Below, one piece after another: positions 5,934 to 39,244 of a stretch of 39,865 bases of DNA. Under the pieces are notes generated by a model. That model did no database searches. It was given only the letters and a program-made list of their open reading frames with translations, and was not told where the DNA came from. Within the stretch, counting starts at the first letter, position 1; each line of letters opens with the position of its first letter. Source of the DNA: a virus (lineage: Duplodnaviria; Caudoviricetes); IMG/VR virus record IMGVR_UViG_3300020460_000006, positions 1 to 39,865 of that record; one strand, given 5' to 3'. Both the position numbers and the translations under genes were made by a program.

Positions 5934-5974
5934 GCAGACCAAGGGGGGCGGCTCAAGCCGCCTCCCTTGTCTGC
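5934..5974 (+). terminator. GC-rich hairpin
   Basis: GCAGAC-C-AAGGGGGGCGGC-TCAA-GCCGCCTCCCTT-GTCTGC, intergenic. Confidence 0.5.
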
Positions 5975-12946: not shown

Positions 12947-15900
12947 ATGGCTAACGCTTTTGACAACTTAACTAGATTGTTCCAGTCTGCTGCGCATGAG
13001 TATGGAACAAAGCCTCTTCAAGAACAGGCTAGGACCGCTCAGATTATTGATCAAAATAATCTGAGAGAGGCTACTACTAAAAGTGCGACTAAATACAATC
13101 TAGAGCTTAAAAGCATTCGTCAAAGAATGGATGCTGGTGAATTTGATGATGATTCTGGTTCTTTAAATCTTGAAGCAGTTCAGCAAGCTCGAATTACCGC
13201 TCGTGATGAATTCGAGCAGTCTTTGCCCGACTACACGTCCAGAGAGCACCTCAACTACAGGGATGAAAACTGGTCAAAGATTATTGAATCTAATAAACAA
13301 AATGTCATTAGCTCTGTCGTTTCACAAACAGAGCTTCAAGAAAATGATTTTGATATAAGATTCCAAGAACAAAGAATTATAAATAATGCTAACGAGGCTC
13401 TTACTGAAGCAATGTCTATTGCTTTCCAAGGTGGAAGCAGGGATCAGGTAGAAGCTGAACTCAATAGAGGGTATCGCTTTATAGAGCAGCCTACAGTTTC
13501 AATGGCTTTTGATGGCACCCTTACTCCTACGTCTGTAAACATAGGAGATGAAGTGCTAACAAGAGAGAAAGTTAGAAAAGGAATTCTATTACGCCCTGAT
13601 ACCGAAATGAGCCCAATTGCCAAATACAAATTAGCTTCACAATATGAAGCTAGTGAAATAGACATGACTGAGGACGAGCGCAATGCTTATTTAGCATCTG
13701 CTAAATCAGGTGCACAGAACAATTTTAAGCAAAATATTACTGATATAAATACTGCTATGAGCAACATAAGCCCTTTAGCTCCCAAAGAAGAACGAGTTAG
13801 GCTAACTGAATTTTATACAGAGAAATTGCAACAAGCTGTACAAGATGACCCTTGGCTAATGGATCGCCAAGACGTAAATAAAGCTTATAGAGATTTAAAT
13901 AGAACTTTAATTAAAATGCAAAAGCCAAGCTTAGAAAATATTGATAAAGCTTTTAATGAACAATTTGAAGGAAGATTAGAATTAGTACAAGATCAACTTG
14001 CTGCTCAGGAAATTACTCCTGAGCATATTTCTTATCCTTCTCATGTTTTAAAAAACATTACTTTGCTAGAAGATGGTACTCACTTTATTAATAAAAAAAC
14101 TGTTGAATACGTTAATGATTACTTTCAAAGCTTTTTGCAAAAAATAGAAAATAACACGGCGACCGAGGCCGACAGAAATCAAGCGTATGAGCTTTTAAAG
14201 AATTACGGAATTTTAATTGGCAACTCTCAAAGGTTTGAAGAGTTTAATGATGATATTTATTACAACTACGCGAATAAAACCTTTGGTCCTGCTTCGCAAA
14301 TATCTTATGAAAGCGGATTTAGCCCTGCTGGCATGTCGCCGACTCAAATCTTTGGCGAACTGCATGAAGAGGTTGCCAAGCAAGCTTTCTACTCCCCTAT
14401 TTCCGTAGGTGGAGGAGGTGCTTCTGGCTCGACTTCTAGAACTCCGTTAGTTGTAAACAATCAAGCTTCTTTGCAATCTTTGCACAATTCGACAGTTAAG
14501 TTTTTGCCTGACGAGCTTAAAGGTGAAGTTGGCGTTGATTTTGGAAATTTAAATAGAAGCTTTTCTAATCATCCTGACGCATTAGGGATTGTGTTTTTAA
14601 CTACACAATTAATGCCAAACACTTTTGGGTTTAGAGAATCTGATCACACATCGCCTATTGCTTTTGATAAGCCTGAGCAGGTTTTATCGTTTTTGAATAG
14701 TCGTGGTTACACTGAGTCTGACATTAGTCGCTTTAGTCGATTTTTGTCTGAAGGCGATACTGAAGTCAAGATGAGAGAAATTTTATCGGCAAGAAGATCT
14801 GGAGACTTCAATACTTCCGAAGCTGCTAAGAAGTACGGTTTATACGAAAGGGATGGCGTCATTGTAAGAGATACTGTCGTTGCTGATTTATACAATGGCG
14901 GATTAAATCACAATGGTAGAAGTGCAGAAATTGCAGGCAAACTAGTCATTGCAAGTCAGTTGAATTTAATTGATCCAGAACGATGGGCTCAATTTGATGA
15001 TGAACAAAGATTAAAATTTATAGAAAGCATTAGATTAGATAGCTTGGATGGTGATTCTTACAGAGTTTATCATTATGGATCATTTGTAGGCAGAGGAAAC
15101 GTTAGCGATCCTCAAAATCCATTTTTCCAATTAGATACTGCTTTGACTATTACTCAAGATGGATACAAATCTATTTTAGACAATCCAATTGCTTCTCAGT
15201 ACGAATTTCCTCGCGTTTATGACGATTGGTCATTTGGGGAAGTAGCTTTTAGTGCTTTTAGAATATTAGACACTATTGCGGATGCATCTACATACATTCC
15301 AGGACTCATAACTCAAGGCATTCGCCCTGAAGTAACTGAGTATTTTTTAGGGACAGGTCTTTTTAGCGAAGATCAAATTAATTATGTCTTTGATAAGCTT
15401 CCTGACACCGGAAGCTATAAAAGAACTAAATTGCCTGGATTTGGATACAGAGCTTATGGTCCGGCCAATTTTTCTTCTGAAGATCAAGAGGCTAATTTTT
15501 CTTTCAAGTCAGTTAAGGGTCCGCTAGGAGAAGCAACTGTTGCCGAGATAATTAATCCTGAATCTTCTACTCCATTTTTTGTTGAAATAATGAAAGAAGA
15601 AGGCCTTTCTTTAATAGAAGGTCGAGGGTTTATGGGTACTGATCAAACAGTTGGAATTACTGACGCTTTTGATGCTCTTTATACTGACCCTGGATTAAGA
15701 GCAAATGTTGGAAGCAAGCCTCAAGGAGCAAGATTTCTTGCTGCTATAGATCACTTATTTGGGAAACCTTTTATAAAAGGTAGGGCTTTGTTTAACCAAC
15801 AAAGCAAAGTAACAGTAGAATTTGCAAATTTATTTGTTGCTCAAAACCCAGAGTTGTTTGAGGGTTTGGATTCTCCTCCTTCTGTTTTAGATGTCCTTCG

Positions 15901-17734
15901 TGCTGCTGATAAAAAGAACAAAGAGCAATGGATTGCTGATGGAAAAGATATTGAATCTTTTCCATCAGAACTAGATATTTTGGCAGCTTTAGATGTTGAA
16001 GATTATCTAGGAGAAAACACTAGATCTCTTGCTGCTATTCCTTCTATTGCTCACACTCATTTAAGGCATTTCCTCTTAGGGTTACAAAGTCTTCCCCAGA
16101 CTCTTCCCGAAAATATGAGAACATTAAACAAAAGACTGCACCTTCAAAAAGATGCTCAATTTGTAAGTTTTGTTCCGCCCGTTTTAGCTGAAGCCGAATC
16201 TGCAAGATACCAAGCTGCTTTAAATGAAGTTACAAACGGCCTTGGCGTTTTTGGATCTGCAAATGAAATTAATGATATGATTCGAGAGAATGCCTTAATT
16301 GCAGAAAATTCATTAATTTTGCCGTACCGAGGTACTGAAACTGTACGAGAGACTATGGACTCTGCAATTGATGCCATGAGAGGAGTTGGGACTGGTACTC
16401 CAGTCAATGCGGCTTTGCCGTTAGATACACCTATTAACATGCGCGACGCACTTGGTCCGTTCTTAGACGGAGAGCTTGAAGAAGGCATAAAAGTAAACGT
16501 TACTACTGGAGACGGAAAAACGACTGGTGGAATGATCACTGTAGTTAAAGATGCTGATACGATTAACACTGTTGTTAACTACACTGACGCAAAAGGCAAT
16601 GATGTTTCTGTTGAGTTAACTGGTCGTTTAAAGGGATTAAAAGCCGCAGAGGTTTTTGATGAGCATTTCAGAAGAGGCAAAGGAGATAGGCCCTATTCTG
16701 AAGTAGGGGGCAAAGAAGCTACTCGTTTCTTTGCAGCCGTTCTCAATGCTTCAGGTGAACATACTACTGTTGTTTTAAGTGGAGAAAAAGGCACGTTTGG
16801 ACGTGAGTTAATTGACGTAAAGCTTGGTCCTAAAGGCATGGACTGGACTGAGCTGGCAACTAGCCTCGGCATTGGTCAGTTTGAAAGACGCTTTGCTGTC
16901 GAGCTTCCTGATTTTGCGAATCAAGAAGTAACGCCTGAGTCTGTTGAAGAAATGCGAAAGCAGTTTCTTGCTGAAGTTGACACTTGGCAAAACGCTCGCG
17001 TCTACAACGCTCCTCAGAGTGGAACTAAAATCTTCCCGACTAGCCATCCTTATGTGACCAACGAAGAGGGCGGCACTTCAAACGTCAGGCTTTCTACTTA
17101 CGAGCAAAACGACATTCATTATGTCGTGCCTGCGATGGTAGATGGCGAGATGATTGACGATCCGTTTGGTGTCGCTAGGCGAAAGGGGTTGCATAACTAC
17201 CCTAGCTTCAGAACAGCAGAAGAAGCATTGCGGTTCAGCAAAGAGCAGCACGGAAACATCACTCCAGATGGAATCTGGCTCCCTACCTCCAAACCCTCTC
17301 CTGAGAATGAAAGTGCTGTAATTGGTTCTATGTTTCGGACTAAAGCTTTTGTTGAAGAAAAGAAAGCTATGTCTAGAGATAAAGCATCGAAAAACAGAGA
17401 ACGTTTGTTGGCTGAATCTCAAGAAGTATTTATTAATCCTGCACTTTCTATTGCTATTGCTGAATCAGAATCTCCTTACGATTTAAGTCTCCCTGGGGGT
17501 CTTGATGAACTTGGAGAAAGTCTAGATAAGTACGGGAATAATCTCTTTGATGTATTGGCTTCTAGACATTTAGGGGAAAGTAATTTCTTGAGATTAAGGA
17601 GGTCTAACCAACCGTTGCCTGACAGCACTAAGGAATATGTCTCAGATGTTTTATTTAGAATGGACGAGTTAATACGAGAGCTGACAGCACAGAACTTCCG
17701 ATGGGACGAGGGGCAGTTTACCAGTGGTAGCTAA
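12947..17734 (+). CDS. Large internal virion (ejection) protein with C-terminal SNase-like and transglycosylase-like domains
   Basis: Position in the ejection cluster; helical N-terminus; VVKDADT/RLKGLKAAE/GKEAT.F/TFGREL motif order; PAL.IAIAESES...STKEYV.DV. Confidence 0.7.
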   Translation: MANAFDNLTRLFQSAAHEYGTKPLQEQARTAQIIDQNNLREATTKSATKYNLELKSIRQRMDAGEFDDDSGSLNLEAVQQARITARDEFEQSLPDYTSREHLNYRDENWSKIIESNKQNVISSVVSQTELQENDFDIRFQEQRIINNANEALTEAMSIAFQGGSRDQVEAELNRGYRFIEQPTVSMAFDGTLTPTSVNIGDEVLTREKVRKGILLRPDTEMSPIAKYKLASQYEASEIDMTEDERNAYLASAKSGAQNNFKQNITDINTAMSNISPLAPKEERVRLTEFYTEKLQQAVQDDPWLMDRQDVNKAYRDLNRTLIKMQKPSLENIDKAFNEQFEGRLELVQDQLAAQEITPEHISYPSHVLKNITLLEDGTHFINKKTVEYVNDYFQSFLQKIENNTATEADRNQAYELLKNYGILIGNSQRFEEFNDDIYYNYANKTFGPASQISYESGFSPAGMSPTQIFGELHEEVAKQAFYSPISVGGGGASGSTSRTPLVVNNQASLQSLHNSTVKFLPDELKGEVGVDFGNLNRSFSNHPDALGIVFLTTQLMPNTFGFRESDHTSPIAFDKPEQVLSFLNSRGYTESDISRFSRFLSEGDTEVKMREILSARRSGDFNTSEAAKKYGLYERDGVIVRDTVVADLYNGGLNHNGRSAEIAGKLVIASQLNLIDPERWAQFDDEQRLKFIESIRLDSLDGDSYRVYHYGSFVGRGNVSDPQNPFFQLDTALTITQDGYKSILDNPIASQYEFPRVYDDWSFGEVAFSAFRILDTIADASTYIPGLITQGIRPEVTEYFLGTGLFSEDQINYVFDKLPDTGSYKRTKLPGFGYRAYGPANFSSEDQEANFSFKSVKGPLGEATVAEIINPESSTPFFVEIMKEEGLSLIEGRGFMGTDQTVGITDAFDALYTDPGLRANVGSKPQGARFLAAIDHLFGKPFIKGRALFNQQSKVTVEFANLFVAQNPELFEGLDSPPSVLDVLRAADKKNKEQWIADGKDIESFPSELDILAALDVEDYLGENTRSLAAIPSIAHTHLRHFLLGLQSLPQTLPENMRTLNKRLHLQKDAQFVSFVPPVLAEAESARYQAALNEVTNGLGVFGSANEINDMIRENALIAENSLILPYRGTETVRETMDSAIDAMRGVGTGTPVNAALPLDTPINMRDALGPFLDGELEEGIKVNVTTGDGKTTGGMITVVKDADTINTVVNYTDAKGNDVSVELTGRLKGLKAAEVFDEHFRRGKGDRPYSEVGGKEATRFFAAVLNASGEHTTVVLSGEKGTFGRELIDVKLGPKGMDWTELATSLGIGQFERRFAVELPDFANQEVTPESVEEMRKQFLAEVDTWQNARVYNAPQSGTKIFPTSHPYVTNEEGGTSNVRLSTYEQNDIHYVVPAMVDGEMIDDPFGVARRKGLHNYPSFRTAEEALRFSKEQHGNITPDGIWLPTSKPSPENESAVIGSMFRTKAFVEEKKAMSRDKASKNRERLLAESQEVFINPALSIAIAESESPYDLSLPGGLDELGESLDKYGNNLFDVLASRHLGESNFLRLRRSNQPLPDSTKEYVSDVLFRMDELIRELTAQNFRWDEGQFTSGS

Positions 17735-27379: not shown

Positions 27380-27736
27380 TCAAATCTCCTGTGTTGACAT
27401 TTGCTTTTGTTGTCTGTAAACCCGCTTGAGCGGGTTTACAGACAACAACAATGCAACGGCAATTGCTATACCTAATCCAAAGGAAGGCTCTGGAAGGTAC
27501 ACTGGCAACTCGTTTGACCAAACGCTTGGTATCTCATTACTAATAGATCTTGACCTTACTAGCAATGCGTTTGCAGGCAGTTCAATAACTGCTTGAAAAC
27601 AATCCAAACAATCGTCTACGGGTTCTACCCGAAGAACCCATTCCCATTCATTAGATGCGACTCTCTGGAACTGAAATTCCCAAGAGTCTACTAATTCATG
27701 TTCTTGTTGTTGCCAGTAGATTGTTTTAAGAGGCAT
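27380..27736 (-). CDS. Hypothetical protein with a PEP-CTERM-like C-terminus
   Basis: VYLPEPS, then hydrophobic FGLGIAIAVALLL, then a basic KR..R..K tail. Confidence 0.55.
   Translation of the reverse strand: MPLKTIYWQQQEHELVDSWEFQFQRVASNEWEWVLRVEPVDDCLDCFQAVIELPANALLVRSRSISNEIPSVWSNELPVYLPEPSFGLGIAIAVALLLSVNPLKRVYRQQKQMSTQEI
27407..27448. repeat. 19-bp perfect inverted repeat with a TTGA loop
   Basis: TTGTTGTCTGTAAACCCGC-TTGA-GCGGGTTTACAGACAACAA. Confidence 0.9.
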
Positions 27737-30804: not shown

Positions 30805-30880
30805 TGGATGCTGGGGCGGGGATCGAACCCGCAACCTACAGGTTCAAAGCCTGTCGCTCTACCAATTGAGCTACCCAGCA
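30805..30880 (-). tRNA. tRNA-Gln(TTG)
   Basis: TGCTGGG/CCCAGCA acceptor, ACAGG-CTTTGAA-CCTGT anticodon arm, TTCGATC T-loop, encoded CCA. Confidence 0.95.
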
Positions 30881-30881
30881 A

Positions 30882-30958
30882 TGGCGCACTCGGCAGGACT
30901 CGAACCTGCGACCCGTTGCTTAGAAGGCAACCGCTCTATCCAACTGAGCTACGAGTGC
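30882..30958 (-). tRNA. tRNA-Arg(TCT)
   Basis: GCACTCG/CGAGTGC acceptor, GTTGC-CTTCTAA-GCAAC anticodon arm, CCA. Confidence 0.95.
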
Positions 30959-30965
30959 GTAAGAA

Positions 30966-31106
30966 TGGAGTCTCCGCCCCCCGTCACGGGGGCGGTGTCT
31001 CCTGAAGGCAGGGCCTCGCGCTACATCGCCCTAACTGCTTGTCGTGACGGACTCACAGGACTGGCGCAGCCGGTATGACTACCTGCACAGATGGTTGCAC
31101 TTTCCC
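30966..31106. ncRNA. Candidate structured RNA in the tRNA cluster
   Basis: GC-rich multi-stem intergenic block; the minus strand ends GACTCCA just before tRNA-Arg. Confidence 0.4.
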
Positions 31107-31424
31107 TTAGAGTGAATTAACCAATTCAGGAATATGGATACCGTCCATATCTTCGGTTACGACCATCATGGCAAGAGGTGTCGGCCTCTTGCTTTTATTA
31201 TCAAAAAGTGCGTAAACTGGATAACTTCCGTCTCCCCACCTTGTAGCAGCAGTTACTCCGGTGCCGTTATTCCACTCGCTGCCAAAGTCAGCACCATCTT
31301 TAAGCAAATGATTTTTACAAAAATCATTCCATTCAGGGGTCTTTACCCCGATTGTGTAACAAGGATCTGAGATCATCAGAGTTCCTGAATCTACACCTAC
31401 AAATCCGATTCGCTTCCATTCCAT
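31107..31424 (-). CDS. DUF4241-like protein
   Basis: GVDSGTLMISDPCY and WGDGSYPVY motifs. Confidence 0.8.
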   Translation of the reverse strand: MEWKRIGFVGVDSGTLMISDPCYTIGVKTPEWNDFCKNHLLKDGADFGSEWNNGTGVTAATRWGDGSYPVYALFDNKSKRPTPLAMMVVTEDMDGIHIPELVNSL

Positions 31425-31449
31425 TATTAACTGTGTCCTTTAATAAAAG

Positions 31450-31525
31450 TGGTGAACCCCCTCGGACTCGAACCGAGAACCCACGGGTTAAAAGCCCGTT
31501 GCTCTACCAATTGAGCTAGGGGTCC
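31450..31525 (-). tRNA. tRNA-Lys(TTT)
   Basis: GGACCCC/GGGGTTC acceptor, ACGGG-CTTTTAA-CCCGT anticodon arm, CCA. Confidence 0.95.
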
Positions 31526-31630
31526 AATGAGAGGGAGAGGAACACCCCCTCCCTCTCTGAACCGTAGACATAAGGTTGGATAAAACTCCCCAGTACCACC
31601 CAGCCTTACTTTCTGTCTACGGAACGCTTG

Positions 31631-31903
31631 TCAATGTATGTCGAGCGCGACACCACGTTCAGCGAACTCTTCAATTAAGTATTGAAGAGTTGTTCGCTGA
31701 GGCTTTGTGATGCCACGCTCGACGTTTCTGATCGTGACATGGGATACGCCGATAGCATCCGCAAGCTGCTGTCTTGTGAGGCCGCATTGCTCTCGGGCAT
31801 CCTGAATGGTTTTACCACGAACAGAGATCGAACCTGTGCCCATGCAAAATGGGCACAGTGTTCGCTCTTCAGTATCGGAAATGGACATAAGAAGGTTGTC
31901 CAT
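31631..31903 (-). CDS. XRE-family HTH regulator with an N-terminal CxxC
   Basis: CPFCMGTG, then REQCGLTRQQLADAIGVSHVTIRNVERG. Confidence 0.85.
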   Translation of the reverse strand: MDNLLMSISDTEERTLCPFCMGTGSISVRGKTIQDAREQCGLTRQQLADAIGVSHVTIRNVERGITKPQRTTLQYLIEEFAERGVALDIH

Positions 31904-32099
31904 TGGTTAGAAATTGCACTAAACGATCAATTGCATTTGCGACGTCTTCTAAATCTTTATAATTGCAAGGCTCACTACCAGACCTAAAGCCTGTTGCTTG
32001 ACCGCTAATAAAGCCTTCTTTGTGGAAATAGACTTGAATACTAGGAGCTTCTTCTTCTGGCTGACAGCAACCAGCTCTTCCGCAATGTTTGCAATGCAT
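31869..32099 (-). CDS. Small Cys-rich hypothetical protein
   Basis: Start MHCKHCGRAGCC just after tRNA-Ile; AGGT SD. Confidence 0.55.
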   Translation of the reverse strand: MHCKHCGRAGCCQPEEEAPSIQVYFHKEGFISGQATGFRSGSEPCNYKDLEDVANAIDRLVQFLTNGQPSYVHFRY

Positions 32100-32111
32100 T
32101 TTATACCTATG

Positions 32112-32188
32112 TGGTTGGCCTACCGGGACTCGAACCCGGAACCGCACGCTTATAAGACGTGTGCTCTAACCAGTTGAGCTATAGGCCA
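32112..32188 (-). tRNA. tRNA-Ile(TAT)
   Basis: TGGCCTA/TAGGCCA acceptor, CACGT-CTTATAA-GCGTG anticodon arm, CCA. Confidence 0.93.
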
Positions 32189-32189
32189 G

Positions 32190-32265
32190 TGGTAGGGATG
32201 GTGGGAGTCGAACCCACACTGGAGGGATTTTAAGTCCCCTGCCTCTGCCGTTGGGCTACATCCCC
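32190..32265 (-). tRNA. tRNA-Leu(TAA) with a short variable arm
   Basis: GGGGATG/CATCCCT acceptor, GGGGA-CTTAAAA-TCCCT anticodon arm, A73, CCA. Confidence 0.92.
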
Positions 32266-33813: not shown

Positions 33814-34881
33814 TTACGACAGAACCTTAACTCGCTTGGCGAGCTTCTTGTATGCAAGGTTCTTCTTGGCAGCACCGTCACCCATCCAGCTATTGCGGAC
33901 GGCCTTGGCAGCTCGCTTACCCTTCTCAACCTGATCACGAACGTGATTGAGGTCGAAGTGGTCGAAGTATTCCGTAAACGCCTGAAGTGCGTCGTATGAG
34001 GAATTACCTTCGTTTCCGTAACCACTGTGGAAGAGGTCAGTGACCTTAGCGACCTTGTTGGTCATAATGACCTTGCTGCGCTGGGGTGCGTTCTCGTAAA
34101 AGAACTTGACATCATCCTTGATCTTGGCCTTCGGCCCATCGAGGTTCAGGAAAACCTCAAGAGCAAAGTCCATGAACTCGTCCTGAGTCATGCTGTTTTG
34201 AGCAAACTCCTGAAGAATGCGACGACGCTCGTCACTTTCTCCACGCATGACATCAATTGCAGTGGCTGCAAGCTCAAGCTTCTCAAGAACTGCACCCTTG
34301 TGAGGAATGCGGAACATGAGATTCTCTCGCTTGGCAATGTCTTCTGCGAAGCCAACCGTGTTTGCACACTCTGCGCGAACGTCAGTAGGCATCATGTTGA
34401 TCGAAGACTTGCCGTCGTGACCAATAGCAACAAGCAAGAATGCATGGTGCGTATTGTTAGCGCCAGACTTGCGACTGATCTGCCAAGAGTCTGGAGTCTG
34501 TGCAAGAATCCAGACTCGTCTCCCCTCTTCGAGAGAACCAGCAGTGTGATAAAGCAAGTCACCATTAGTGACTAGGTTATCAAGGAAAGTAAAAGCTTCA
34601 CGATTCTGAAAGAGTTCATAAGCGTCAGTACAGCGACCAAGTACAGAATTATCGCTTGTGCGAATAAGGAACTTTTCATTATCAGCTTCTTGATAGTCGT
34701 CAGCAACCTTGTAATAAGCAGGTGTCTTAGCGACTTCCCAATCAAGTCCAGCAGCAGCAATTGCTTCTGCGGAAGTGACTGCGCCTTCGCCCAGGTCAAC
34801 GCCTACTGCGTTTCCCTGTGCTGAGTTGCCATACCACCAAGGCTTTTTACCAGTGAACATCATCTTTTCTACAGCGTGCAT
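33814..34881 (-). CDS. DUF932 family protein (phage/plasmid-like)
   Basis: AAGLDWEV, QNREAF.FLD, TAGSLEEGRRVWI, HDG and VRAECANT motifs. Confidence 0.9.
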   Translation of the reverse strand: MHAVEKMMFTGKKPWWYGNSAQGNAVGVDLGEGAVTSAEAIAAAGLDWEVAKTPAYYKVADDYQEADNEKFLIRTSDNSVLGRCTDAYELFQNREAFTFLDNLVTNGDLLYHTAGSLEEGRRVWILAQTPDSWQISRKSGANNTHHAFLLVAIGHDGKSSINMMPTDVRAECANTVGFAEDIAKRENLMFRIPHKGAVLEKLELAATAIDVMRGESDERRRILQEFAQNSMTQDEFMDFALEVFLNLDGPKAKIKDDVKFFYENAPQRSKVIMTNKVAKVTDLFHSGYGNEGNSSYDALQAFTEYFDHFDLNHVRDQVEKGKRAAKAVRNSWMGDGAAKKNLAYKKLAKRVKVLS

Positions 34882-35136: not shown

Positions 35137-35173
35137 TGTACCGATTTGAGACTCATGTACCAATTTGAGACTC
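35137..35173. repeat. Tandem 18-bp direct repeat (putative operator)
   Basis: TGTACCGATTTGAGACTC-A-TGTACCAATTTGAGACTC. Confidence 0.85.
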
Positions 35174-36016: not shown

Positions 36017-36049
36017 TTGGTTCTCCTTCTAGGGTTTATTTGAGACTTT

Positions 36050-36350
36050 CCCTGCGCTCTGCGAGCCCAAAGGTGGGGGTGCCCCGGCTTTCGGGAGGCA
36101 GGAGCCTTCGGGCTGGGCGCTGGGTGGGGTGAAATCGAGCGTAGCGATGATGAGGGGCTTGCCCCTAAGGTGAATGCTTAGACGCTCATATCCTTGAGCG
36201 TGCATTTCACCTTGGGGTGAAATTTGGGTGAATATCCTTTCACTCAAATGAGGGGCTTGCCCCTCCAGAATGGATGCGCTTGCGCATTCCTTATCAAGGC
36301 GCGAAATTGCAGCCCCGGAGCGCGGTGCGTGCGCCCCGGAGCTGCAATCC
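36050..36350 (+). ncRNA. Candidate structured ncRNA or ssDNA element
   Basis: Continuous hairpins, C(TTCG)G and G(CTTG)C loops, a duplicated 17-mer and + strand G-T pairs. Confidence 0.5.
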
Positions 36351-36370: not shown

Positions 36371-36847
36371 CTACTTGGCCGGGGTGTCGAAGGTCGGGAT
36401 CGACTTCGCCATGTGGATCGCGAACTCGTTCTTCCAGCCCTCGGCGTCCGTATACGAGGCGTTCGGGTCATCCTTGATGCGAAGAAGGTTGACGACGACG
36501 CGCTTCCCCTTCAAGCACTGAAGCTTCCCGGCCGGGAGTCCGGATGCCCCGGCCTCCTTGCTGGCCTTCGACAGCGGAGCCTTGCCCATCGTCGCGTTCC
36601 AGAGCGCGGCGAACTTCGCGAGTTCGAGCTTGGTAACGCCTGCGTTGATCTTCAGGGGTCCGTGCTCCTGCCCGGTCTCGTCAACGAAGTGGATCAGAGC
36701 ATACTGATACCGCCCGTGCTTGGAGTGCGACGCCTCGTTCATCTGGGCACGAGTGATCGTAACCATGTGGCGTCCTTCGTCGAGGGCACGGGGGTTTTCG
36801 GTCGCGCTCATCAGTTCGTTAATCGAAAGCATTTCGGTCATTCTCAT
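36371..36847 (-). CDS. Possible DUF669-like OB-fold ssDNA-binding protein
   Basis: LDEGRH.VTI..A and LKGKRVVV patterns; GC-rich codons. Confidence 0.45.
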   Translation of the reverse strand: MRMTEMLSINELMSATENPRALDEGRHMVTITRAQMNEASHSKHGRYQYALIHFVDETGQEHGPLKINAGVTKLELAKFAALWNATMGKAPLSKASKEAGASGLPAGKLQCLKGKRVVVNLLRIKDDPNASYTDAEGWKNEFAIHMAKSIPTFDTPAK

Positions 36848-36940: not shown

Positions 36941-37564
36941 CTACTCGGGATTCTCCGCCTTTCGGAGCAGCGCGATGTAGTTCGACTCGTCTACGAGTTC
37001 GGGCTTTCCGAAGTCGTCAAAGACGGTCGCTCCGTGGTCGTCGAGCTTGCTGAAGCGGTAGTCCCAACTGAAGCCTGCGGACTCCGCATAGAGCTGGTTG
37101 GGCGAGTCATAGCCCTCGGACTCAAACTCGAACGTCCGCTCGTGGAATGCTTGGCCGCAGTCGTGGCAGAGGACTCGCGTTTCGTCGAAGAGGTGCGTCT
37201 TGCAGACCTGACAGCATCGAGCCTCCTGCTCCCGGAGCCAAGCATCGTGGAGCGATCGAGCGATGGCACGGAGCAACGCTTGCTGCTCGTCCGGCTCGCG
37301 GTCCCAAGCCTCGGCCTCGCGAAGAAGGTCGCCGAGGCGTTCGGTCACATCCTCGAACTTGCGGGTCCATGCGACGGCTGCTCGGTCAGAGCGTTCGTGC
37401 TGGGCGTCAGGGTCAACTGGGATGTCGGACATCCAGAACGTCCGGCCCGCGAGGTCGCGGACCCACTTGTTGTCTGCACCCCGGTCCCGCTTGGACTGGG
37501 CCTCCATCGATGCCAGCATGGCATCCTTGATGGCTTCGAGGCGCTCGTAGTAACGATCTTGCAT
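36941..37564 (-). CDS. Early hypothetical protein with a CxxC-CxxC zinc finger
   Basis: AGGAG SD; CQVC...CHDC. Confidence 0.7.
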   Translation of the reverse strand: MQDRYYERLEAIKDAMLASMEAQSKRDRGADNKWVRDLAGRTFWMSDIPVDPDAQHERSDRAAVAWTRKFEDVTERLGDLLREAEAWDREPDEQQALLRAIARSLHDAWLREQEARCCQVCKTHLFDETRVLCHDCGQAFHERTFEFESEGYDSPNQLYAESAGFSWDYRFSKLDDHGATVFDDFGKPELVDESNYIALLRKAENPE

Positions 37565-37592
37565 TGCTATCTCCTATTATAAGCTTAACGGT

Positions 37593-37802
37593 CTATGAAG
37601 TGAACTTCGTCAATTGCGCAAACGTCTCTTCTGCGACGGCAAGGCGGTCGTCTGCTTCTGCGATATACGGAATCTCCCAGTAGTCGTCGGAGTCGGCTTC
37701 GAGGTAGCTACCCCCTTCGTAATATTGATCGGAATACCGCTGAACCTCAGCATACGCCCGATCAAGCTCTCGCTCCCAAATTTTAATCAGTCCTTCGATC
37801 AT
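37593..37802 (-). CDS. Small acidic, Tyr-rich early protein
   Basis: AAGGAG SD; 69 aa. Confidence 0.7.
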   Translation of the reverse strand: MIEGLIKIWERELDRAYAEVQRYSDQYYEGGSYLEADSDDYWEIPYIAEADDRLAVAEETFAQLTKFTS

Positions 37803-37829
37803 GCTCGTCTCCTTCTTGCGCCCGCCCTA

Positions 37830-38505
37830 CTGCGTGCACCACGGGGGACCCACTGGTAGCAAAGGCCGGAGGTTTTGTGGCTGGAGGAAAAGTTCTCGCA
37901 GCGATCTGATCCTATCCTGGGGCGCCCGTCCACGAAGTGGACAAAAGTGGGCGCGAAAATTGTCCTCAATTTTCTCAGTCGCGAGGACAGTTTTCTGGAA
38001 GCCACAAAATTGCTCTTACCCGCATGGCTTTGCTTTGGATTGAACTGGGCAAAACTCCCAGCGGGGAAGGCAACCTTTGCTATTGGTGGGTAACCCGTGT
38101 GTGTATCTGCGTCGTTTCAATGGATTTGCATGGGGGAGTCCGCGAACCCCATGCAAATAGGCGGTCTCGCCCGCCGTCCAATTGAAACGCGTTGAGTGTA
38201 GACACCCTCGATGGGTGTCGGAGCGACTCCGGAGGGCGCTATTTACGTAAAGCGAATCTGTCAGCAGAGAACGAGGTTCGACGCCGATGCGTTGGTTTTT
38301 TCTCAGCGTTACTTGTTTTGCGCCCGCATGCCGCTCCGTAGTCCTCGGAGGACGGCCAGTACAGTGGTGCAGCGGCGTTACGCTGCTTCCGTTAGGGCGT
38401 TGGAGTAGGCGAGCACGCCCCCCGCCGGGGAAGGGCGGGTGAGCTTGAGCATTCTAATGCCGCGGGAAGAGCCACGCAGAAACCAGCCGGTTTCTCGTGT
38501 TCCCA
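37830..38505 (+). ncRNA. Candidate giant structured ncRNA or ssDNA fold-back element (about 680 nt)
   Basis: Long nested and branched helices with many + strand G-T pairs; no credible ORF. Confidence 0.55.
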
Positions 38506-38512
38506 GCCCAAT

Positions 38513-38878
38513 TCATGCATCAGAGTCAGGGAGAACAGCAGCAATGTGGTCTGGCACGAAAGAAAGCGCAGAACGTCGAGCGTCGAGGTAATTGGAACGA
38601 GCAATGGCTGCATTCCGGTCACGAGAGCGTTGGCTGGAGCGTCGTGAGGCGTAGATGTGGGTCAGGCCACGCAGGGCAACTGGCATGACGCTTGGGATGC
38701 GAATGACGCCGCGCTCCCATCGCGAGATGGTGGAGCGCGTGACGCCAAGGTCTTGGGCAAGCTGGGTCTGGGTTTTGCTATAGCGTTCGCGGAATTGCTT
38801 GATGTCCGAGGGTGTGGCGCGTTGGTGCTTCACGAGGAAGTTGTCCCGGTTGTGCAATAAAGACGTGCTTTGATGCAC
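38513..38878 (-). CDS. XRE-family HTH regulator (start uncertain)
   Basis: IKQFRERYSKTQTQLAQDLGVTRSTISRWERG. Confidence 0.85.
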   Translation of the reverse strand: MHQSTSLLHNRDNFLVKHQRATPSDIKQFRERYSKTQTQLAQDLGVTRSTISRWERGVIRIPSVMPVALRGLTHIYASRRSSQRSRDRNAAIARSNYLDARRSALSFVPDHIAAVLPDSDA

Positions 38879-39090
38879 ACCGTACCGAAAATAGATCTAT
38901 GGGTCTACGATGCACTGCGTTTGTGGGTGAGTGTGGTGTCCCAGCGCATTCGTTCGTGTTCTGCGCAAGCGCAACGAGGGTGGGGGGTACCCCCGCCTTT
39001 GGGCTCGTAGAGTGCAGGTAAAATCTCGATTCTCAGTCTGGACTCATTTTTATCTCTTACAATACAAGTATAGTATTGAAGCAATTTTAG

Positions 39091-39120
39091 TTGACAAGGC
39101 TATAAAAAAGCTCTTAAAAT
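39091..39120 (+). promoter_or_regulatory. Sigma70-type promoter for the packaging/virion operon
   Basis: TTGACA-18 nt-TAAAAT in an AT-rich island upstream of terS. Confidence 0.65.
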
Positions 39121-39244
39121 GTTAAGGGACGCAACGTAAAGTTAACGTAATGACAGTCTGCCTTTCCCCGCTTGAGCGGGGACGGCAGACAACGTAGTGT
39201 TGTTACATTGGGGTTTAAGTACCCTTGCGTCTTGAGGTTGATTC

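What the first reader, a model, noticed from the sequence alone, without database searches (positions are those of the whole stretch)
37830..38505. About 680-nt ornate multi-domain structure: possible new giant phage ncRNA
Seen nested helices on the + strand: CACGGG 37840/CCCGTG 38094; ACCCACTGGTAGCAAAGG 37848/CCTTTGCTATTGGTGGGT 38074 (18 bp, 3 G-U); GTTTTGTGGCT 37872/AGCCACAAAAT 38000; TTCTCGC/GCGAGGA; GCGCCC/GGGCGC enclosing GTCCAC-GAA-GTGGAC; GAAAATTG-TCCT-CAATTTTC. A second domain has CGTTTCAAT 38113/ATTGAAACG 38181 enclosing ATTTGCATGGGG/CCCCATGCAAAT and GGCGG/CCGCC. Further stems follow: GACACCC/GGGTGTC, CGAATCT/AGGTTCG, GTCCTC/GAGGAC, GCAGCG/CGCTGC, GGGAA-CACG-AGAAACC/GGTTTCT-CGTG-TTCCC. 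Size and complexity recall the phage-borne GOLLD and ROOL RNAs, but I recognise no known class.
Basis: partly seen in the sequence, partly recalled or inferred. Interest (0 to 1): 0.8.

Follow-up and report, generated by a model that had tools for sequence, protein, structure and literature searches.

The report
Folded single-strand DNA block in phage
The folded 680-base stretch is real, but it is one swappable piece of a hairpin cluster in the GC-rich early-gene block of a marine phage, and it likely folds as single-stranded DNA that would give start signals for copying, not as one giant RNA.

Summary
The helices are real (z -8.8, no Rfam match) and the + strand is the one that folds. The 676 nt are not a conserved unit: none of 5 relatives spanning the site keeps it whole, two strains delete 161 nt of it, and modules are swapped. 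It lies in a 2.2-3.9 kb GC-rich block, present in all 6 genomes between two conserved motifs just upstream of the putative terminase small subunit. The block holds host-codon-adapted early genes ending in a DUF669-like OB-fold (SSB-like) gene. In the non-coding islands, DNA-type mini-hairpin loops (C-GAA-G 9 vs 0.6 expected) and a TCYT loop (21 vs 0.9) are enriched on the + strand; RNA tetraloops (GNRA, UUCG) are not. In 2 of 6 genomes long-range inverted repeats of largely different sequence close the whole block, with G.T wobbles on +. Best reading (0.45): transiently single-stranded template-strand DNA carrying priming-type signals, like plasmid sso/ssi sites. A + strand RNA is not excluded (0.2; no RNA data). 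Frpo-type -35/-10 boxes were not found, and an unbiased wobble count over all local hairpins showed no strand bias.

The parts
37830..38505 (+). The reported fold: right-hand hairpin island of the block, a mosaic of modules
37840..38104 (+). Domain 1, long multibranch stem, shared with L003 (85% over 37619-38104) and strains X6/X7
37928..37942 (+). Hairpin whose loop is C-GAA-G here and a G-TCYT-C loop in L003, X6, X7
38233..38393 (+). Dispensable module, absent in X6 and X7, bounded by a short direct repeat; similar module in L004
36039..39031 (.). GC-rich block (59% against 44% in the 2 kb to its left), 2.2-3.9 kb in 6 of 6 genomes
36039..36046 (+). Left boundary motif TTTGRGAC; one orientation only (15 on +, 0 on - in four sequences), mostly just upstream of minus-strand genes
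36040..36085 (+). Left arm of long-range inverted repeat
38984..39029 (+). Right arm of long-range inverted repeat, including the G-run/C-run palindrome
39032..39041 (+). Right boundary motif CTCAGTCTGG about 40 nt after a G-run/C-run palindrome; in 11 of 15 loci examined, the other 4 begin too close to the terminase gene to reach it
36126..36350 (+). Left hairpin island (TATCCT loops, C-TT-G loops); its last hairpin 36306-36348 favours the - strand and is likely the terminator of the SSB-like gene
36371..36847 (-). DUF669-like OB-fold, likely ssDNA-binding protein; a divergent relative sits at this place in all 6 genomes
36941..37802 (-). Two early ORFs of unknown function (207 and 69 aa), directly downstream of the fold
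38513..38878 (-). HTH_3 regulator (start uncertain); inside the block here and in L004, outside it in most relatives

Best explanation
The 676-nt fold is one interchangeable part of a hairpin cluster on the template (+) strand of this phage's GC-rich early block, and it likely acts as folded single-stranded DNA whose hairpins would serve as start signals for host priming enzymes. Shown: the fold, the strand for domain 1 and for the long-range repeat, the block and its boundary motifs, module swapping, loop statistics, codon use. Inferred: that the block is expressed first; that the + strand is exposed for a time (strand displacement from a nick or end at the conserved right boundary, driven by the phage AAA_25 helicase) and is coated by the DUF669-like protein except at the hairpins; that host primase or RNA polymerase starts the complementary strand there, as at plasmid sso/ssi sites. 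In the window and L004 the paired block ends would also let a 3' end near 39030 fold back. No polymerase or primase was recognised among the phage proteins scanned, so host priming would be needed.
For: Loops in 14 hand-picked non-redundant non-coding segments (6,671 nt, 7 genomes; 300 dinucleotide shuffles, stem of 3 or more): C-GAA-G 9 on + and 2 on - (expected 0.6), C-GNA-G 18/7 (2.2), word GCGAAGC 10/2 (1.0), TCYT 21/1 (0.9); GNRA 6/6 (3.6-3.9, 53 and 63 of 300 shuffles reach it), UUCG 1/1. Across 9 loci C-GAA-G is 0.77/kb inside blocks and 0.08/kb outside; GNRA 0.88 and 0.89. GCGNAGC/GCGNNAGC hairpins are far more stable as DNA than RNA and occur at ssDNA priming sites (PMC13037366, passages). 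Block ends pair in the window (39 WC, 5 G.T, 1 A.C) and in L004 (54 WC, 5 G.T, 1 A.C) with largely different sequence; duplex energies -66 and -73 against controls of -38 and -30. Strain changes at 13 predicted pairs: 5 to G.T, 2 to WC, 1 double, 5 broken, 0 to A.C. SSB-like gene in the block. Block genes avoid the five codons read by the phage's own tRNAs (11 of 162 against 695 of 1782 in late genes).
Against: No direct sign of single-stranded DNA; contig depths inside and outside the block are alike. The closing repeat is missing in 4 of 6 genomes. An unbiased count over 71 local hairpins gave 46 G.T against 43 A.C and a second count 44 against 34, within shuffle range, so strand bias rests on domain 1, domain 2 and the long-range repeat. 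C-GNA-G is also enriched on - (7 against 2.1). The finding itself has only one C-GAA-G loop. Related genomes share hairpins by descent, so counts are not independent events. High GC3 in the block is explained by early expression without any ssDNA. No nicking or Rep protein was identified.
Confidence: 0.45

Rival explanations
1. A + strand non-coding RNA (or several small ones), antisense to the early operon, lineage-specific and modular; this is the first reader's idea in reduced form.
For: + strand fold with G-U pairs and compensatory changes; a terminator-like hairpin with T-run at 38278-38295; sequence alone cannot reliably separate ssDNA from RNA motifs (PMC5737381, passage).
Against: No + strand sigma-70 promoter in or before it, although the phage has clear ones at 39091 and 37604; no conserved ends or core; the terminator lies in the module deleted in X6/X7; GNRA and UUCG loops not enriched.
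Confidence: 0.2
2. Hairpins extruded from supercoiled double-stranded DNA after entry and read on the template strand by a phage or host protein, as N4 early promoters are; TCYT loops are the binding sites.
For: Repeated short hairpins with a constant loop and fully changed stems (30 on +, 1 on - in 9 loci), upstream of early genes on the template strand; N4 uses C-GNA-G template hairpins.
Against: No RNA polymerase domain in the 1595-aa or 1159-aa virion proteins; G.T-rich long helices and a 3-kb-range repeat would not extrude from duplex DNA.
Confidence: 0.15
3. Structured leader or intercistronic RNA on the - strand early transcript; the loops read AGGA/AAGA there and could bind CsrA/RsmA or the phage SSB (autoregulation).
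For: The - strand also folds (z -9.2); in the window and L004 the island lies between co-oriented genes; some hairpins in the block do favour the - strand.
Against: One-sided changes give G.T on + and so A.C mismatches on -; 9 of the 30 loops read AGA, not the GGA that CsrA needs (requirement recalled, not from a call; loops).
Confidence: 0.1
4. Packaging or end-processing signal: the block is the genome end, staggered nicks at the two boundary motifs expose the strand during concatemer cutting, and the fold protects or primes the end.
For: Right motif is conserved at fixed spacing just upstream of the putative terminase small subunit; sharp GC step there; the repeat ends 3 nt before the motif in the window.
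Against: No doubling of contig depth over the block; contigs of several runs and IMG/VR records cross the site; the left motif recurs at other early genes.
Confidence: 0.1

Closest known systems
Single-strand initiation signals and origins (RSF1010 ssiA, G4/St-1/alpha3 complementary-strand origins, rolling-circle plasmid sso; GEBRO motif)
   Same: GC-rich folded strand, mini-hairpins of the CCGAAGG/GCGAAGC kind, host priming needed (PMC13037366 and PMC5737381, passages).
   Different: Here in a tailed dsDNA phage, spread over two islands in a 2-4 kb gene-bearing block; no sequence match to plasmids or cultured phages; no Rep or primase found.
Plasmid leading region with Frpo ssDNA promoters
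   Same: GC-rich, host-codon-adapted early region with an ssb gene and folds on the template strand upstream of genes (PMC11541004 and 10.1101/2025.04.03.647016, passages).
   Different: No -35/-10 boxes in the fold; no relaxase or oriT; tailed phage DNA is expected to enter double-stranded.
GOLLD and ROOL RNAs
   Same: Size, multibranch fold, phage genome that carries tRNAs.
   Different: No Rfam match, no conserved core or ends, opposite strand to and 5.5 kb from the tRNAs, modules deleted or swapped.
N4 virion RNA polymerase hairpin promoters
   Same: C-GNA-G loops on the template strand in the early region.
   Different: No virion RNA polymerase recognised; the commonest loop is TCYT.
Nick motifs of phage tf, Rembedalsseter, phiKMV, T5
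   Same: A short motif repeated on one strand only and clustered in one part of the genome (PMC11780129, passages), like TTTGRGAC here.
   Different: Different sequence, 3-5 copies, mostly beside start codons; nicking untested.

Membership tests
GOLLD/ROOL/OLE/HEARO large RNAs | Match to the covariance model | tested here: not met
   No hit at gathering score in the window or 6 relatives; nothing better than E 1.6 over the finding
GOLLD/ROOL/OLE/HEARO large RNAs | Whole secondary structure conserved among homologues | tested here: not met
   0 of 5 relatives keep the whole; 161-nt deletion in X6/X7
GOLLD/ROOL/OLE/HEARO large RNAs | Transcribed as a discrete RNA | not testable with these tools
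   No RNA run listed
Frpo ssDNA promoter | -35/-10 boxes in the stem on the folded strand | tested here: not met
   0 sites at 8 of 12 in 37803-38512; 9 on + in 15 segments against 15.5 in shuffles
Frpo ssDNA promoter | Fold on the template strand upstream of early genes including ssb | tested here: met
sso/ssi single-strand origin | Strand-specific fold with DNA mini-hairpins | tested here: met
   overall wobble bias not seen
sso/ssi single-strand origin | Sequence similarity to known plasmid or phage signals | tested here: not met
sso/ssi single-strand origin | Primes complementary-strand synthesis | not testable with these tools
   needs an in vitro or plasmid rescue assay
N4-type hairpin promoter | Phage-encoded virion RNA polymerase | tested here: inconclusive
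   No RNAP family hit for the two large virion proteins; they were not folded
DUF669 phage SSB (gene 36371-36847) | OB fold and DUF669 likeness | tested here: inconclusive
   No Pfam hit; Atlas features 0.95 to a cluster with 16% DUF669; model pLDDT 69 matches OB folds only, best Foldseek E 1.7e-3 to PrgE, best Z 6.9

The most novel reading that the evidence does not exclude
A tailed double-stranded DNA phage whose first-used 2-4 kb end works as a folded single strand, a phage counterpart of the plasmid leading region: closed by a long-range stem, studded with TCYT-loop protein sites and priming signals, and able to self-prime or express its SSB before becoming duplex.
Probability: 0.25. Interest if true: 0.88.

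Novelty: new variant of a known kind. Interest (0 to 1): 0.55.

Why it matters
Long functional single-stranded DNA folds are known from plasmids and ssDNA phages. Four literature searches on this point listed no such block in a tailed phage; these cover only open-access text. If the block is single-stranded during entry or replication, it points to an unrecognised way for podoviruses to start infection. It is also a caution for ncRNA mining: a large ornate fold in a phage need not be an RNA.

Tried and rejected
Rfam by gathering score and E-value: nothing. Cultured phages and plasmids by blastn: nothing useful. Short ORFs in the finding: 3 scanned, no PHROG match. No RNA holder listed among sequencing runs. 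Host search in GTDB with terminase small subunit and capsid: none. The 80 best terminase-large-subunit loci added no new relative with the block. A 16-nt hairpin scan gave 119 loci that look like coding-region coincidences, with almost none of the companion motifs. Two further motif scans returned only contigs already held. Contig ends near 38850-39050 in some runs are not consistent and prove nothing about a terminus. An invertible segment was considered: all 6 genomes have one orientation and no joint showed inversion. Whole-block folds put the terminal helix on both strands and favour + by 40 and 18 kcal/mol, without shuffles. In one search my structure string was out of register in the outermost helix, so its 14 unpaired rows there are partly artefact. 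Earlier-findings look-ups returned nothing. The Fremin et al. catalogue (PMC10690425, passages) holds candidates of at most 151 nt; 3 of its 6 listed supplements were searched without a hit, the other 3 and its large files could not be read, so single hairpins may be listed there.

Full report
Context. The window is a whole 39,865-nt circularly assembled genome (77-nt end overlap) of a marine podovirus-like phage: structural genes on +, early and replication genes mostly on - (AAA_25 helicase, RuvC-like, HTH; Erf on +), five tRNAs. The finding lies between the early gene starting at 37802 and an HTH gene, about 750 nt upstream of the putative terminase small subunit (39245; named by position, no family hit).

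Observation. All quoted arms are present. The fold is far beyond chance on both strands (z -8.8 and -9.2). No Rfam family matches. The + strand is favoured: 28 G-U of 246 pairs against 7 of 220. Against L003, three pairs change on both sides and three change on one side, all to G-U (two sequences only, 61 of 500 shuffles reach it). For strains X6/X7 I classified 21 of the 40 differences shown (21 more were not shown): 7 unpaired; of 13 pairs, 5 became G.T, 2 WC, 1 double change, 5 broke (4 in one weak arm), none A.C.

Not a unit. Terminase-based searches gave 5 distinct relatives that span the site (L003, L004, L005, L089, L095; 81-94% identical protein) plus partial loci. By blastn L003 shares domain 1 and 24 nt more, L004 two short modules, and L005, L089, L095 nothing of the finding. 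X6 and X7, from two studies, skip 38233-38393. One hairpin carries a GAA loop here and a TCYT loop in L003, X6 and X7. This is unlike GOLLD and ROOL, whose stems are conserved across members (PMC5737381 and 10.1101/2024.12.08.627333, passages).

The larger feature. In 6 of 6 genomes a 2.2-3.9 kb block of 53-60% GC, against 36-44% to its left, runs from TTTGRGAC to a G-run/C-run palindrome followed by CTCAGTCTGG. The left motif occurs 15 times on + and never on - in four sequences. The block's last gene models as an OB fold like DUF669 proteins, which are proposed phage SSBs (PMC4889955, passage). Block genes have GC3 0.57-0.82; the HTH gene has 0.60-0.61 inside the block and 0.39 outside it in L003. 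They avoid codons served by the phage tRNAs (11 of 162, against 108 of 445 in other minus genes and 695 of 1782 in late genes), which marks them as likely first expressed and explains the GC3 without ssDNA. In the window and L004 the two ends of the block pair over 46 and 28+33 bp with 10 G.T and 2 A.C in all; in L003, L005, L089 and L095 they do not.

DNA or RNA. In 14 non-redundant non-coding segments that I chose by hand (shared parts of L003/L089 and L005/L095 dropped), DNA mini-hairpin loops and TCYT loops are enriched on +, RNA tetraloops are not (numbers under Best explanation). Such mini-hairpins are much more stable as DNA and occur at G4, St-1, alpha3 and RSF1010 priming sites and N4 promoters (PMC13037366, passages). 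Against: two unbiased wobble counts over local helices show no clear strand bias, partly because some hairpins are mRNA terminators on -; and counts are not independent. Frpo-type boxes are absent, so I favour priming signals over promoters. Contig depth is neither doubled nor lowered over the block, which argues against a long terminal repeat or a permanently single strand in those samples, though the sample type is unknown.

Verdict. The best reading is a modular single-stranded DNA signal region in the early block of a small marine phage clade (0.45), with + strand RNA (0.2), extruded hairpins (0.15), - strand leader RNA (0.1) and packaging end signal (0.1) as rivals. How the strand becomes single is inferred, not shown. 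Papers PMC13687109, PMC3517423 and the others not named above were seen as listings only; PMC11780129, PMC11541004, PMC10690425 and 10.1101/2025.04.03.647016 as passages. The CsrA GGA requirement is recalled.

Noticed in passing
window 39091-39200 (+): Sigma-70 promoter (TTGACA-18-TAAAAT, with a conserved GCTCTT before the -10) followed by a long hairpin whose sequence changes while pairing is kept, in most of the 11 loci folded; a good candidate small RNA or attenuator ahead of the terminase operon.
   Followed up: partly
window 5934-5974, 27407-27448, 39156-39190: Three long hairpins share a GCTTGAGC/GCTCAAGC cap and GCAGAC/CAGAC feet; possible shared processing or protein site.
   Followed up: no
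window 35145-35171, 36039-36046; L004 4373-4416: TTTGRGAC motif on one strand only, in tandem at 18-19 nt spacing and mostly just upstream of early start codons; nick site, operator or start signal untested.
   Followed up: partly
window 30805-32265 (-): All five tRNAs read A-ending codons (Gln, Arg, Lys, Ile, Leu) that late genes use heavily and block genes avoid, pointing to a GC-richer host.
   Followed up: partly
window 12947-17734 (+): 1595-aa virion protein with no PHROG or Pfam match and one other homologue found (53% identity); Atlas lead to glucosaminidase-bearing proteins is weak (0.76).
   Followed up: partly
L003 6187-6243 and 6783-6837; L089 2310-2360 and 2903-2957; L005 5890-5920: A hairpin with a GAGGNACGAGGG core is duplicated beside copies of the left motif, also outside the GC block.
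   Followed up: no
window 33814-34881 (-): DUF932 gene just downstream of the block, conserved in relatives.
   Followed up: no
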